Positions 10,950-32,861 of a stretch of DNA of 64,000 nucleotides are shown piece by piece. Position 1 is the stretch's first letter. Every line of letters begins with the position of its first letter. Source of the stretch: Lineus longissimus (taxonomy: Eukaryota); NCBI RefSeq assembly GCF_910592395.1, contig NC_088313.1, positions 17,830,500-17,894,499 of the forward strand. The letters are read 5' to 3'. The position numbers were made by a program, and so were the translations under genes. The notes beneath the pieces were generated by a model. The model was not told the DNA's origin. It ran no database searches and saw only the letters and a list, made by a program, of their open reading frames with translations.

Positions 10950-11031
10950 ATGGTGATTCAAGCAGATAGAAAAACACGCTGTGCTGCCGATCTGACATTC
11001 AATACGAAATCGTCTCTGAAACTAACTGGTG
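10950..11031 (+). CDS. TEP1: TEP1-like exon 1 (start codon; MVIQADRKTRCAADLTFNTKSSLKLTG)
   Basis: ATG at 10950 follows an in-frame TAG. Donor G|GTGAGT at 11032. Phase 1 matches the exon 2 acceptor. Confidence 0.5.
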
Positions 11032-11199
11032 GTGAGTATTGCAGACGCATAGCTTCCTATCAATATCATCAGTACGTCTCGACTCTAGACTCTGAAATCT
11101 CTGGATCTGTGAATAGTACTAGTACATGTTTTAGTTTCATCTGAGATAATTTTTTCGTCTTTAAGGCTTTCATTGATTTGGTCTTTGCTGTAATTTCAG

Positions 11200-11978
11200 G
11201 TCTGAGGAGTAGTGGTCTTGGTAGTAACTTGTGCAGCTCACTAAGCAAGACTTCATCGACTAAGAAAGATGGTGAATCAAATTTGTCTAACCTTGGCCTT
11301 GGGAAAACAGGAATGGGTCTCACCTCTGGTTCTTTGCTGTCAGGAAAGAGTCTCCTGGGGACAGCCACTGGGACATCCTTGAGGAATACTTCACTGCTTG
11401 GTTTCTCTGCATCAAAATCCAAGGAACCTGATGATCTGAAATCGTCTTCCCGTTTGACAAGCAGTCCAGGTTTGGGGTTAAGGTCGACAGGACTTGGCCT
11501 CAGGTCAGTAGGTTTGGGAGGATTGACGTCACTGACATCGTCTGGTCCACTTAAAGGACTGGGGACAACTACTGGCCTCTCAAGGGAACCGACTCTGTTG
11601 TCTGGGTTGCCGTTGAAGTCTAATCTAACAACATCAAGCCTTGCTTGTCCACTCAGAACAACACTTCTGAAAGAAAGTAGATCCCAGGGACAGGGTGGTG
11701 ATGTCAGAGGATCTCTTCCTGAAAAGGGTCCTACGCCGAAGAAGGAGAAGAAGAGGAAGGATGATGGCAAGAAGAAAAAAGATGGCAGGATGACTGTATC
11801 AAAATTGGACAAACAGGAGACCAATAAGCAGCTCCAGTCGGACATCGAACTCCCCACGTATGACCTTTGCCTTTCTGCTGAGGTGAAGGATATTGAAAAG
11901 ACCTTGTTCGTTCCACCAGAGCAAGATGCTGCCATCATGTTGAGTTCAAAGGTCAAGGATGAATTACTTGCTATGAAG
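11200..11978 (+). CDS. TEP1: TEP1-like exon 2. G/L/S/T-rich N-terminal repeat region plus a K-rich stretch.
   Basis: Acceptor taatttcag at 11198-11199. Open for 779 nt. Donor AAG|GTATGA. Confidence 0.7.
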
Positions 11979-12208
11979 GTATGATTCTTTATGCTACTTG
12001 TTATCATCTCTGTTCATGAACCTTATCAATTTAGTTGATGAAAATGAGCATTTTGAAATCCACATGTAGTCGTCGTTGTATGGATTAATTGGTCAACAAT
12101 ACTGCAATATTGGGACCAGAGGAGTGAAATGTTAGTTTAAAAAAACTGTGAGTGGCTGCAGATTGAAATTAAAACACCTTATGTTATCGGTATAATCCAT
12201 TGTTTCAG

Positions 12209-12337
12209 TGTAACTTCATCAATGCTGTCAGTGCTTCCCTGATTGGTGCACCAGATTTCAAGAAACCAGCAACATGGGCCTCTCTCCGTAATATGGTTGA
12301 GACAGTTGCAAGATATGACCCAGAGTTCATTCTTAAG
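12209..12337 (+). CDS. TEP1: TEP1-like exon 3 (TROVE domain start, CNFINAVSASLIGAPDFKKPATWASLRNMVETVARYDPEFILK)
   Basis: Acceptor tgtttcag, donor AAG|GTAGAT, phase 0. Confidence 0.8.
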
Positions 12338-12632
12338 GTAGATTCCGTTTACTTCCTCTGCTTTCAAGTAAACTTATATGGTGGTTTAATTGATACTAGA
12401 TAGAGTAAATTATCCTCTCTGGATAGAGGTGTCTGCAATGATTTGGAAGGACCACTGTTATTTCGAAGAACCACTGTTCCTTGAATTAAGGGCATAACCG
12501 TACCTTAGTGCTGCTACAAAGAATCTTTGCTTTTATTTCATTCTTTTATTTCACCTTTTAAGATAATTGCTGATACCAAGAATATATAAAGACTAGTCTT
12601 AATTAATTCTTGCTGATACCGTCACATTTTAG

Positions 12633-12794
12633 GTGGCTCTTTACACAAGAAAATGCCTTAATATAAGAACTACCGCAAACTTCCTTCTGGCCCTCGCATC
12701 ATTCACCAAAGAGTGCAGGATCTACATCAAGAAATACTTCAGTGCTTCAATAAATCTGCCTTCCGATTGGATAGAAGTGGCAGAATATTACCAG
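12633..12794 (+). CDS. TEP1: TEP1-like exon 4 (TROVE, ALYTRKCLNIRTTANFLLALASF...)
   Basis: Acceptor cacattttag, donor CAG|GTTAGT, phase 0. Confidence 0.8.
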
Positions 12795-12914
12795 GTTAGT
12801 AAAAACAAAAAAGCAGACTACAGTTACACCATCCTTGACAAACACGAAACCCTCTCTGTTTTTGATAAGGACACTGCATACCAAATTGGTTGTTCCATTG
12901 AGTTAGACGTCTGT

Positions 12915-12970
12915 AATCAGGACACCTCTCAATGAAGCATTTGTGAATCCCAAGGGTCTCCTTAATAGAG
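12915..12970. repeat. Fragment of the TA-flanked MITE family that has a full copy at 17113-17290. Retains the internal and right-end motifs (aatcaggacacctctc...aagggtctccttaatagag).
   Basis: Sequence similarity to 17215-17285. It abuts the candidate acceptor at 12969-12970. Confidence 0.35.
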
Positions 12971-13149
12971 GCAGACATTCAAAAAGTTCTGAGTGCTGAG
13001 AAGACAAAGAAGAAGAATTCCCTGAAAATACGGTACAATGACCTAGGTTTGCAACTTGGAGAGCTGAATGACAACAGGTAAGCTCTGGATCCTTATGCAT
13101 TATTTATCCTGTCACATGATAAATCAATTTACTCTCTATTTATTTGAAG

Positions 13150-13246
13150 CTCTTTGATGACTCTTCCATCAAGTTTGGCTCGCTCCCAGCTGCTCTTCGA
13201 CGTGCCATGGTTGCCAAGTTTCCAGATTTTGACAAATATCAGCTTG
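13150..13246 (+). CDS. TEP1: TEP1-like exon 5 (TROVE, LFDDSSIKFGSLPAALRRAMVAKFPDFDKYQL)
   Basis: Acceptor tttgaag at 13148-13149, donor TTG|GTATGT. Phase 0 in, so it is compatible with a direct splice from exon 4. Confidence 0.65.
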
Positions 13247-30360: not shown

Positions 30361-30705
30361 AGTATGTAAATGATACGCAAACGGTAAACCAATGAAAGGC
30401 CAGTATCTATTGAACCTTACAAGTAATTTGGGGGCCTTGAAACTCCTTATATTTATCAATGAAACCTTATTCCCGCCTAAGGTTTTGACCGGGCCGTCCA
30501 AAACTCCCCATTTTTTGGCGGGCCCTTTCCTTTAACTATTCTAACCTTGTCTTGAAGTTTTAACTCTTCTGACCATGTCTCCAAGTCTCCAAGTGCATCG
30601 GTCAAACGATAACATCATCACCAAGCTTATGATAAAATCTGATAGAATTTCGGAGCTTGTGTTATTGAGCTGAAAGGATAAACAGGCTGCTGTGCCTTTT
30701 TTCAG

Positions 30706-30870
30706 GTTCCTGGACACTATTAAGGCTGGGCGCCCTCTGTCATCCATCTGCTGGAACCATTTTGCCAGCAATAGCAAGAAGAAAGTTAATGCTTTCTTGG
30801 TCAGTGACTGTAACGGAAAGATCTACACTTTCAACACCAAGAGCTGGAAACACTCGGTTATCGCAGTCAA
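30706..30870 (+). CDS. TEP1: TEP1-like exon 41 (WD40)
   Basis: Acceptor gccttttttcag, donor AA|GTAAGT. Confidence 0.8.
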
Positions 30871-31146
30871 GTAAGTTTAACTAAGATTTAGCAGTTTTCA
30901 GTTTGTGTTTTAGCTCATCTGGCCTGATAACTTACAATATGTGCTGCACTGAATCCTTGTTTCATTGTAAAGAAACACACCTATGGTAAAAAAACAGCTA
31001 TGGTCTGAAAATGCCTGAAAATGCCGTTGGGACTCAAAAAATTTAATTGATTGGCTCTTCGTACACAAAAAAAAACACAGCATTGCTGAGTTGAATTCTA
31101 TTTTAAACCCTCTTGCCAAGTATACATGTATGTTATCTTTTTCCAG

Positions 31147-31264
31147 CCATGATGTAATGGTCTTTACAATGGGATTTTCCTCCACGCATGTGGAGGTACT
31201 GCTGAGTGCTGGCACAGGCTCTTACATACCTCGGTGCAGGTTTGACAAGGACAAGTTTTTGGAG
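31147..31264 (+). CDS. TEP1: TEP1-like exon 42
   Basis: Acceptor tatctttttccag, donor GAG|GTACGT. Confidence 0.75.
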
Positions 31265-31591
31265 GTACGTAGGTTTTTATTGCTAGGTGGTGGGTGTGTT
31301 GCATTTGTGAAGAGACAGGCCCATGATGTACTACCTTTTGATATAGTGCTTGCCTTCTACTTGGTTTAAAACAATTGAATACATCGAATACATCTTGGAG
31401 TGACTTATTCAGGCATCTCTTGAATCACAATCTATGACGTTGCTCATTACTTTGTTTCACGAGGACGGAATGGTCAAGTTTATCAATCCAATTTCACTCA
31501 CTGAAATGTTAATAGTGTGACCTTGTCAGCCAAAGTTTGTTGGGCTGGGTTGCTGTAGCTTATGATGTATACCTTTTCCCCATCATTCCAG

Positions 31592-31756
31592 TTGGACCCC
31601 CTGACTCGTTGCGTCGATGAAAACGAAGAGCAAGAGAACTGGATCAGGACGATGGAGTTCGAGTTTGGCTTGATCTACCTTGGAGACTCATTTGGTCACC
31701 TGATCATCTATGATGATAAGTTGAAGGAGGCACCAGAGCTAATCATGAGAAGAAAG
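31592..31756 (+). CDS. TEP1: TEP1-like exon 43
   Basis: Acceptor ccatcattccag, donor AAG|GTGAGA. Confidence 0.8.
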
Positions 31757-32138
31757 GTGAGATAAGTTCATTTTGTAATCAAGATCTATCGAAAAGTGTA
31801 GTTTTGTGTTATTCAAAATGGTTAGAAAATAAGATATCATACAATAGTCGATCCAGGAGTAGGCCGAACTTCAAACAAAGAATGAATTTCAATCCCATTG
31901 AGTTTTGAGTATCAATCATACACTAGACCAGGAGTCACTCACGACTTGTTCATTCCCTTAGGACATTGGTCCACATATCAGATGTTCAGGACATATTCTT
32001 CTAAGAAATTCATTCTGAAATTTGAAAGAAGTACCTTGTCTAAACACACATAAAATTGTTTGAGGCGTAGTCTTGTTGTTTACACACGCCACTGTTCTCT
32101 AGTTGAAATTATAATTGTTTTAAATATCTTTTTTCCAG

Positions 32139-32240
32139 ATTCATGGTGGCGCCATCACAGGCATTGTTCTGACTGAGCGCAATATTTTCACGGCGTCCTC
32201 CGACAAGACGATCAAGGTCTGGGATCGAGAAGGAAAGCAG
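32139..32240 (+). CDS. TEP1: TEP1-like exon 44 (WD40; SSDKTIKVWD)
   Basis: Acceptor tcttttttccag, donor CAG|GTATGT. Confidence 0.85.
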
Positions 32241-32705
32241 GTATGTCACTTATTTGGAGCACCTACTCCGTCATGACTTGTTGCTCGCCACCTTCCGGTA
32301 TAACAACTCCTTCCTCAGCTTTGGCTCCCCACTTACATGTAGAGGGGTTTTTCCTCATAGAATGTTCCTCCTTCAAGATGGGATGATCATATTTGCATGC
32401 CACTACAGTGTAGGCACTAGTTCGGTTTATTGGCCGAGTGACGCTGTCTTCTGGAAGGGGAGAAGCCCTGTCATAGACACCAGGTACAAGGCACTTTCTT
32501 TTTCTGGTGACCACCTTATGATTGCTCCTCGTAACCCCAGATTGATTTCTGCGGAGACTGGGGTGAAATGATGTGGTCTTGCAAAAGCACTTTGAGCATC
32601 AAAACTTGAAAAGCGCTGTATAGAACTCAATATTATTAACATTATCACTATCAAGAATTAATTAAGACTATTCTTGCTATCATTCATGGTTGCTGTCTTT
32701 TTCAG

Positions 32706-32861
32706 CTTGGTCAGTTCTTCTCAACCTTCCCAGTGACCAGTTTGATTCAGAGTGTACTTCGTTCCAACAGTGAGGAGGATTCTATCAGTTTGCTATGTGG
32801 AGATCAACTTGGAAACTTGCTCAGTCTGGAGTGGAGCCACCCTGATCTGAAACAAGATTAA
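32706..32861 (+). CDS. TEP1: TEP1-like terminal exon 45 (…LEWSHPDLKQD, stop TAA 32859-32861)
   Basis: Acceptor gtctttttcag. The summed CDS over 45 exons is 8160 nt (2719 codons plus stop), consistent with the tracked phases. Confidence 0.8.
   Translation, partial: LGQFFSTFPVTSLIQSVLRSNSEEDSISLLCGDQLGNLLSLEWSHPDLKQD

What the first reader, a model, noticed from the sequence alone, without database searches (positions are those of the whole stretch)
10950..32861. Giant TEP1-like gene (TROVE, vWA, DUF4062, NACHT, WD40), about 45 exons over 22 kb
The reconstructed exons give a ~2719 aa protein with the diagnostic TEP1 (telomerase/vault protein) architecture. TROVE motifs are present (LRNL, FRFFSAY). 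The DUF4062 signature is [10 protein letters not shown]…LGLLGHRYGW. NACHT has Walker A (GKPGCGKS) and Walker B (ILIALDGVD). At least 16 WD40 exons follow. All 44 introns have canonical GT-AG boundaries and consistent phases; the CDS length is divisible by 3.
Basis: partly seen in the sequence, partly recalled or inferred. Interest (0 to 1): 0.55.

Follow-up and report, generated by a model that had tools for sequence, protein, structure and literature searches.

The report
Ordinary invertebrate TEP1 (vault protein) gene

Summary
All six quoted motifs lie on the + strand at the stated places. An independent gene model, refined with homologues, gives 45 exons, 44 GT-AG introns and an 8160-nt CDS.

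The DUF4062 region aligns with the solved TEP1 chain 11gz_A (E 3.9e-61). It keeps every residue that 2026 preprints show human TEP1 needs for NAD+ hydrolysis, including the catalytic Glu (E1091 here).

The low-complexity N-terminal exon is real coding sequence. Against a related-species contig, 40 of 74 differing codons are synonymous on the + frame and 6 on the antisense frame.

Verdict: an intact TEP1 orthologue of an unidentified, probably lophotrochozoan, animal. Only a lineage-specific RGG stretch and a Ser/Gly/Leu-rich N-terminus stand out. Interest is low.

The parts
10950..32861 (+). Whole TEP1 coding span: 45 exons, 2719 aa
   Evidence: Gene model; homologues colinear by tblastn; end-to-end blastp with a C-terminal TEP1 fragment
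10950..11031 (+). Exon 1 (aa 1-27), start codon ATG 10950
   Evidence: In-frame TAG three codons upstream. ATG, peptide and donor position are conserved in the related contig L001.
11200..11978 (+). Exon 2 (aa 28-287): Ser/Gly/Leu/Thr/Lys-rich low-complexity N-terminus, then a conserved tail
   Evidence: Against L001, 40 of 74 differing codons are synonymous on this frame and 6 on the antisense frame; mismatches by codon position are 25/21/60. The tail is 86% identical to P0241.
12209..12337 (+). Exon 3 (aa 288-330), TROVE begins at aa 308 (12269)
12633..12794 (+). Exon 4 (TROVE)
   Evidence: tblastn with P0048
13150..13246 (+). Exon 5 (TROVE)
13507..13796 (+). Exon 6 (aa 417-513): variable basic/acidic linker inside TROVE, with an RGG-rich run at aa ~447-488
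   Evidence: It starts with AKYNKEKSKKKK as in homologues P0010 and P0048, which have no RGG run.
13987..14096 (+). Exon 7 (TROVE)
14421..14578 (+). Exon 8 (TROVE)
15006..15115 (+). Exon 9 (TROVE, LRNL motif)
15384..15474 (+). Exon 10 (TROVE, FRFFSAY motif)
15673..15814 (+). Exon 11 (Lys/Arg-rich linker inside TROVE)
   Evidence: Homologues have a basic linker here. No direct homology hit, so this is one of the less certain exons.
15989..16163 (+). Exon 12 (TROVE ends at aa 750, 16088)
16355..16516 (+). Exon 13 (vWA / DUF5920)
16885..17099 (+). Exon 14 (vWA / DUF5920)
17510..17740 (+). Exon 15 (vWA / DUF5920 to aa 962, 17693)
17960..18136 (+). Exon 16: start of the TIR-like NADase domain (DUF4062/TeTIR, aa 979-1193); holds F985, R997 and R1025 of the RWG loop
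18434..18676 (+). Exon 17: TeTIR core; C1042, R1059 and the catalytic Glu E1091 (codon 18594-18596)
   Evidence: Alignment to 11gz_A, residue mapping, residue roles from the preprint
18987..19100 (+). Exon 18 (TeTIR)
19372..19675 (+). Exon 19: end of TeTIR (aa 1193, 19483) and start of NACHT; Walker A GKPGCGKS, K1253 at 19661-19663
   Evidence: Acceptor 19372 gives VYDG|YPCHWGG as in homologues
19914..20095 (+). Exon 20 (NACHT)
20365..20512 (+). Exon 21 (NACHT, Walker B ILIALDGVD, D1344 at 20441-20443)
20823..21095 (+). Exon 22 (NACHT ends at about aa 1414)
21252..21384 (+). Exon 23 (winged helix, HTH_NWD1)
21511..21694 (+). Exon 24 (winged helix)
22056..22165 (+). Exon 25
22435..22744 (+). 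Exon 26 (APAF1-type helical domain)
   Evidence: Its acceptor lies in the second copy of a 68-bp tandem duplication.
23083..23472 (+). Exon 27 (end of helical domain, first WD40 repeats)
23707..23856 (+). Exon 28 (WD40)
24182..24299 (+). Exon 29 (WD40)
24487..24853 (+). Exon 30 (WD40)
   Evidence: 54% identical to P0121
25579..25700 (+). Exon 31 (WD40)
26010..26158 (+). Exon 32 (TEP1 second propeller)
26475..26574 (+). Exon 33 (TEP1 second propeller)
   Evidence: a decayed copy lies in the next intron
26757..26870 (+). Exon 34
27173..27280 (+). Exon 35
27522..27672 (+). Exon 36
28058..28218 (+). Exon 37 (acceptor moved from 28013 to 28058 on homology)
28363..28574 (+). Exon 38
28922..28994 (+). 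Exon 39
29195..29322 (+). Exon 40
   Evidence: followed by the longest intron (1383 nt)
30706..30870 (+). Exon 41
   Evidence: No gap at this junction in the alignment to P0121
31147..31264 (+). Exon 42
31592..31756 (+). Exon 43
32139..32240 (+). Exon 44 (TEP1 C-terminal propeller)
32706..32861 (+). Exon 45 with stop codon (TEP1 C-terminal propeller)
   Evidence: Acceptor 32706 adds LGQ. The sequence aligns to the homologues' C-termini.

Best explanation
This is the intact orthologue of TEP1 (telomerase protein component 1, the minor vault protein) in an unidentified invertebrate, probably a lophotrochozoan.

The 2719-aa product has this order of parts:
- a disordered Ser/Gly/Leu-rich N-terminus;
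- a Ro60-type TROVE ring plus vWA domain, the small-RNA-binding module;
- a TIR-like NADase domain (DUF4062/TeTIR);
- a NACHT STAND ATPase with a winged-helix domain and an APAF1-like helical domain;
- about 1000 aa of WD40 repeats, roughly three propellers' worth by size.

Shown here: the gene structure, the domain order, the intact Walker A and B motifs, conservation of every residue known to be needed for NAD+ hydrolysis in human TEP1, and purifying selection on the N-terminal exon.

[quoted passage not shown] The NACHT and WD40 parts probably control assembly or activation, as in other STAND proteins.
For: - Gene model: 45 exons, all introns GT-AG, 2719 aa.
- Pfam: TROVE E 1.7e-106, DUF5920, DUF4062, NACHT, HTH_NWD1 and APAF1_C. 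WD40 in 16 stretches, Beta-prop_TEP1_2nd 238.8 bits, Beta-prop_TEP1_C 135.2 bits.
- Named homologues: best hits are called telomerase protein component 1, with Lingula anatina at 53% identity. They are colinear with the exons. A C-terminal TEP1 fragment aligns at 38% identity over 898 columns to the last residues.
- Solved chain 11gz_A 'Telomerase protein component 1': E 3.9e-61. F985, R997, R1025, C1042, R1059 and E1091 match human F902, R914, R942, C959, R976 and E1008. Mutating each of these abolishes activity.
- TROVE+vWA placed N-terminal of TeTIR-NACHT is described as the mark of TEP1 orthologues.
- TEP1 is an active NADase inside vaults.
- N-terminal exon: 40 of 74 differing codons are synonymous on the + frame and 6 on the antisense frame.
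Against: - No transcript data, so exon borders and expression are unverified.
- NACHT passes the Pfam cutoff only narrowly (27.4 against 26.7 bits).
- Human R908 and R954 are Lys here. R908 is poorly conserved, and R908A keeps considerable activity.
- The mammalian TEP1 N-terminal repeat family did not match.
- The related contig L001 has a frame offset between the low-complexity part and the conserved tail of exon 2. That leaves some doubt about the N-terminus in that species.
- I could not check that the same genome has MVP, PARP4 or vault RNA.
- No full-length reciprocal search was possible. The homologue search appears to list only hits up to about 1.75 times the query length.
Confidence: 0.93

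Rival explanations
1. The locus is a decaying or unexpressed copy (pseudogene) of TEP1 rather than a working gene.
For: There is no expression evidence. Small internal tandem duplications exist: a 68-bp one at the exon 26 acceptor, a decayed copy of exon 33, and a repeat insertion in intron 30.
Against: The reading frame is open across 45 exons and 8160 nt, with canonical splice sites throughout. All catalytic and nucleotide-binding residues are kept. The least constrained part, exon 2, shows codon-level purifying selection. The duplicated pieces lie in introns and leave the frame intact.
Confidence: 0.02
2. The first two exons are not part of TEP1. They would encode a separate small Ser/Gly/Leu-rich protein or an upstream ORF, and TEP1 would start further downstream.
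For: In the related contig L001 the low-complexity frame ends in a stop. The conserved KLDKQE... tail is in another frame. The low-complexity part has no homologue among 1.84 billion representatives except that relative. An antisense ORF of 312 aa is also open.
Against: In the window the frame runs unbroken from ATG 10950 through exon 2 into TROVE. In L001 the conserved tail has no in-frame ATG upstream of its own, so it must be read from upstream. The L001 offset sits beside an A-rich run in a single metagenome contig, where an assembly error is plausible. The antisense ORF fails the synonymous-change test, 6 against 40, and has no Pfam hit.
Confidence: 0.04
3. It is a TEP1-like paralogue of the wider TeTIR-NACHT-WD40 group (the NWD1/NWD2 kind, or a lineage-specific immune STAND protein) and not the orthologue of the vault protein.
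For: TeTIR-NACHT-repeat proteins are a family with several members per animal genome. Many hits are DUF4062-NACHT proteins without TROVE.
Against: TROVE and vWA are present in the TEP1 position. The two TEP1-specific propeller families match well above their cutoffs. The closest named proteins are all TEP1.
Confidence: 0.01

Closest known systems
Human TEP1 (telomerase protein component 1, minor vault protein; solved TIR-like domain 11gz_A)
   Same: Same domain order: TROVE, vWA, TIR-like NADase, NACHT, winged helix, helical domain, WD40 propellers. The two lengths are close (2719 aa here; about 2627 aa in human, from memory). The NADase domain aligns at E 3.9e-61 with all essential residues kept.
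   Different: There is no match to the mammalian N-terminal repeat family; the N-terminus is a Ser/Gly/Leu-rich low-complexity stretch instead. An RGG-rich run sits in the TROVE linker. Human R908 and R954 are Lys here.
Lingula anatina 'telomerase protein component 1-like' (P0001) and unnamed JGI TEP1 fragments (P0002, P0010, P0048, P0121)
   Same: These are the closest sequences found: 53% identity over TeTIR-NACHT and 36-38% over the propellers. They are colinear with the exons and share the C-terminus.
   Different: They are fragments. Their TROVE linker is basic/acidic but has no RGG run.
Ro60 / Rsr (TROVE + vWA RNA-binding proteins)
   Same: The N-terminal module is the same pair of domains. 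The vWA model's best structural matches are Ro60 proteins.
   Different: Ro60 stops after the vWA domain. It has no NADase, NACHT or WD40 part. Sequence similarity is weak (E 2.6e-4).
NWD1, NWD2, NPHP3 and bacterial DUF4062 defence proteins (Swarozyc)
   Same: They share the TIR-like DUF4062/TeTIR domain directly upstream of a NACHT ATPase.
   Different: They lack TROVE and vWA. NPHP3 lacks the catalytic Glu. The bacterial proteins act against phage.

Membership tests
TEP1 orthologues | TROVE domain near the N-terminus | tested here: met
   PF05731, 357.5 bits, E 1.7e-106, aa 308-750, covering profile positions 43-442 of 442
TEP1 orthologues | vWA domain directly after TROVE | tested here: met
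TEP1 orthologues | TIR-like NADase domain (DUF4062/TeTIR) directly upstream of NACHT, with the catalytic Glu and the RWG loop | tested here: met
   PF13271, 57.5 bits. 11gz_A E 3.9e-61. F985, R997, R1025 (RWG), C1042, R1059 and E1091 are conserved against the residues defined.
TEP1 orthologues | NACHT STAND ATPase with Walker A and Walker B | tested here: met
   PF05729, 27.4 bits against cutoff 26.7. GKPGCGKS and ILIALDGVD are present. This is a narrow pass on score.
TEP1 orthologues | C-terminal WD40 propellers, including the TEP1-specific second and C-terminal propellers | tested here: met
   PF00400, 346 bits, 16 stretches. PF25047, 238.8 bits against cutoff 89. PF25048, 135.2 bits against cutoff 32.
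TEP1 orthologues | Reciprocal best match to vertebrate TEP1 over the full length | tested here: inconclusive
   Only partial tests were possible. The solved TEP1 chain is the only strong PDB hit, and the best named hits are all TEP1. The search listed no hit longer than about 1.75 times the query, so no full-length protein could appear.
TEP1 orthologues | Mammalian N-terminal 30-aa repeats (TEP1_N) | tested here: not met
   No hit. From my own knowledge these repeats are a mammalian trait and do not define the family. The preprint's family definition does not use them.
TEP1 orthologues | NAD+ hydrolysis, vault RNA binding and residence in vault particles | not testable with these tools
   Needs biochemistry. 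Inferred.
Ro60 family | TROVE + vWA as the whole protein (about 500-540 aa) | tested here: not met
   About 1750 further residues follow the vWA domain in one reading frame.
NWD1/NWD2-type TeTIR STAND proteins | TeTIR at the N-terminus with no TROVE/vWA extension | tested here: not met
   TROVE and vWA precede the TeTIR domain.

The most novel reading that the evidence does not exclude
The two lineage-specific disordered inserts might give this TEP1 an extra RNA-binding or condensate-forming property that vertebrate TEP1 lacks. One is the roughly 40-aa RGG box inside the TROVE linker. The other is the selectively constrained Ser/Gly/Leu-rich N-terminus that stands where mammals have the N-terminal repeats. 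This could change which RNAs it loads or how it enters the vault.
Probability: 0.12. Interest if true: 0.3.

Novelty: already known. Interest (0 to 1): 0.12.

Why it matters
It matters little beyond correct annotation. It adds one more intact invertebrate TEP1 with a complete NADase active site. That fits the 2026 reports that NAD+ cleavage is an ancient, conserved activity of the vault's minor protein. The sequence could serve as a protostome-side test case: express aa 979-1193 with and without E1091A.

Tried and rejected
- First-pass model. It had 50 exons and several errors. It split exon 2 and exon 30. It added in-frame mini-exons at 22842-22916, 24994-25055 and 25183-25222; the last two lie in a repeat element. 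It also used the acceptors 19357, 28013, 31240 and 32715. All were corrected on homology. The TEP1-specific Pfam scores rose afterwards.
- The 165-aa ORF at 29629-30123 in the longest intron is not an exon. Homologues show no gap at that junction and it has no Pfam hit.
- The 312-aa antisense ORF at 11069-12007 has no Pfam hit and fails the synonymous-change test.
- Nested genes: other long intronic ORFs on both strands have no Pfam hit.
- No Rfam family and no tRNA were found in the window, so there is no vault RNA gene here.
- Naming the organism through CtBP failed. The best hits are molluscs at 88-90% identity, which is not species-level.
- The three homologue searches listed nothing longer than about 1.75 times the query, so full-length TEP1 proteins could not be retrieved.

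
Full report
**1. The observation**

They are LRNL 15035, FRFFSAY 15414, [10 protein letters not shown] 17976, LGLLGHRYGW 18480, GKPGCGKS 19643 and ILIALDGVD 20426. Stop-free stretches on the + strand between 10.9 and 32.9 kb read as a string of short exons.

**2. The gene model**

A codon-usage table was trained on stretches matched by homologues. It was combined with generic splice-site weights in a dynamic programme.

I removed three in-frame mini-exons and restored two exons that had been split. I then moved four acceptors where the homologue alignments demanded it:
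- 19372 gives VYDG|YPCHWGG, as in every homologue.
- 28058 removes a 15-aa insert that is absent from homologues.
- 31147 is the better-scoring in-frame acceptor for exon 42.
- 32706 adds LGQ, matching the homologues' ...QVGL(Y/F)....

The final model has 45 exons and 44 introns, all GT..AG, 126-1383 nt long (median 285). The CDS is 8160 nt and encodes 2719 aa, from the ATG at 10950 to the stop ending at 32861.

**3. What the product is**

Pfam on the spliced protein gives these matches:

| Family | Score or E-value | Residues (final model) |
|---|---|---|
| TROVE | E 1.7e-106 | 308-750 |
| DUF5920 | 46.1 bits | 781-962 |
| DUF4062 | 57.5 bits | 983-1066 |
| NACHT | 27.4 bits (cutoff 26.7) | about 1243-1414 |
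| HTH_NWD1 | E 1.4e-11 | about 1466-1586 |
| APAF1_C | E 2.7e-7 | about 1595-1726 |
| WD40 | 346 bits, 16 stretches | 1704-2719 region |
| Beta-prop_TEP1_2nd | 238.8 bits | best stretch 2073-2286 |
| Beta-prop_TEP1_C | 135.2 bits | best stretch 2636-2711 |

**4. Homologues**

The best named relatives are 'telomerase protein component 1' entries. Lingula anatina is the closest, at 53% identity over the DUF4062-NACHT region. Several fragments are colinear with the exons.

An 868-aa C-terminal TEP1 fragment aligns in one piece to the very last residues: 38% identity over 898 columns. There is no gap at the 29322/30706 junction. The 165-aa ORF inside that 1.4-kb intron is therefore not coding.

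The three homologue searches never listed a protein longer than about 1.75 times the query: 920, 1206 and 373 aa for queries of 527, 689 and 213 aa. Full-length TEP1 proteins could not appear, and a true reciprocal best-hit test was not possible.

**5. Mechanism**

Sequence search of the Protein Data Bank finds one strong hit. It is chain 11gz_A, 'Telomerase protein component 1', at E 3.9e-61 over aa 979-1193.

Three 2026 preprints report that this domain, DUF4062 (also called TeTIR or NIR), is a TIR-like NADase. I read two of them:
[quoted passage not shown] It does so alone and inside reconstituted vaults, and the activity depends on E1008.
- The activity is conserved in mouse, zebrafish, sponge and Dictyostelium TEP1.
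- F902, R914, R942, C959 and R976 are also required. R908 matters less.

Counting along the alignment, the window protein has F985, R997, R1025 (in an intact RWG loop), C1042, R1059 and E1091. Only the poorly conserved R908 and also R954 are replaced, both by Lys. The Walker A lysine (K1253) and the Walker B aspartate (D1344) are present.

I therefore infer an active NADase coupled to a working STAND ATPase. RNA binding through TROVE/vWA and residence in vaults are taken from the literature and are not shown here.

**6. The doubtful N-terminus**

Exon 2 is mostly a Ser/Gly/Leu/Thr/Lys-rich low-complexity stretch, and a 312-aa ORF is open on the opposite strand. A search of 1.84 billion representative proteins with aa 1-287 found one hit. 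It is a 76-aa fragment, 86% identical to the end of exon 2.

Its contig is L001, a 2146-nt contig from JGI metagenome sample 3300040954, from a related species. L001 has the same ATG exon with the same donor and the same exon 2 acceptor. The low-complexity part is 57% identical in a single frame.

Of 74 aligned codons that differ, 40 are synonymous on the + frame and only 6 on the antisense frame. Mismatches by codon position are 25, 21 and 60. The low-complexity stretch is therefore protein-coding on the + strand and under purifying selection.

One point remains unexplained. L001 lacks the equivalent of aa ~165-223 and shows a frame offset just there. This could be an assembly error beside an A-rich run, or it could be real.

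**7. Lineage-specific features**

Exon 6 carries an RGG-rich run (aa ~447-488) inside a TROVE linker. In homologues that linker is basic then acidic but has no RGG run, and the conserved ends of the linker are kept. The mammalian N-terminal repeat family does not match. These are the only departures from a textbook TEP1.

**8. Surroundings**

- A FAM53-like exon lies upstream on the + strand (473-1345).
- CtBP exons lie downstream on the - strand (45233-48897). Their best matches are molluscs at 88-90% identity.
- No Rfam family and no tRNA were found in the window.
- Intronic ORFs have no Pfam hits.

**9. Verdict**

The observation and the interpretation are both right. This is an ordinary, intact TEP1 orthologue, and the gene family, its architecture and its invertebrate members are all already described. 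Interest is low. The most that can be said is that its NADase site is complete and that it carries two unusual disordered inserts.

Noticed in passing
window 25029-25266 and 3919-4061: A palindromic element of about 105 nt with terminal inverted repeats (CTACGCCATCGCCATCTTCAGGGCAA). Two tandem copies sit in TEP1 intron 30 and more copies lie near 4 kb: 7 arm matches against 0 expected. It looks like a MITE-type repeat and caused two false mini-exons in my first model.
   Followed up: partly
window 22338-22469: A 68-bp tandem duplication (83% identity) copies the acceptor and the first ~35 nt of exon 26. Only the downstream copy keeps the frame; the upstream copy runs into a stop.
   Followed up: partly
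window 26584-26678: A decayed copy (79% identity) of exon 33 lies 110 nt downstream in intron 33, with an in-frame TGA. It is a dead duplicated exon.
   Followed up: partly
window 33189-35855: Three tandem copies of a ~928-bp unit (94-100% identity) begin about 330 nt after the TEP1 stop codon. Their ORFs have no Pfam hit.
   Followed up: partly
window 473-1345 (+): A large exon of a FAM53-like gene (PF15242, E 1.2e-21) lies upstream of TEP1.
   Followed up: partly
window 45233-48897 (-): Exons of a CtBP gene (2-hydroxyacid dehydrogenase domains; best hits are molluscs at 88-90%). Two adjacent, similar exons at 48060-48245 and 48263-48466 encode the same segment, so they may be mutually exclusive exons or an exon duplication. 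From memory, FAM53 and CTBP genes are also linked in human (4p16.3 and 10q26), so this may be old synteny.
   Followed up: partly
window 62947-63294 (-): An ORF that starts like a THAP zinc finger (MPTTCGFPNCKFRS...RVPKKPSILRERWLKAIG), but with no Pfam hit at E 0.01.
   Followed up: partly
window ~10780-10800: A perfect CRE-like palindrome, TGACGTCA, lies about 160 nt upstream of the TEP1 start codon. It may be a promoter element.
   Followed up: no
L001 1270-1285 (JGI metagenome sample 3300040954, contig Ga0451425_087305): In the related species, the low-complexity part and the conserved tail of exon 2 are in different frames, and about 59 codons present in the window are missing. I could not decide between an assembly error and a real difference.
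   Followed up: partly
Homologous-protein tool: The listed hits never exceed about 1.75 times the query length. Searching with a fragment of a giant protein therefore cannot return its full-length relatives.
   Followed up: no
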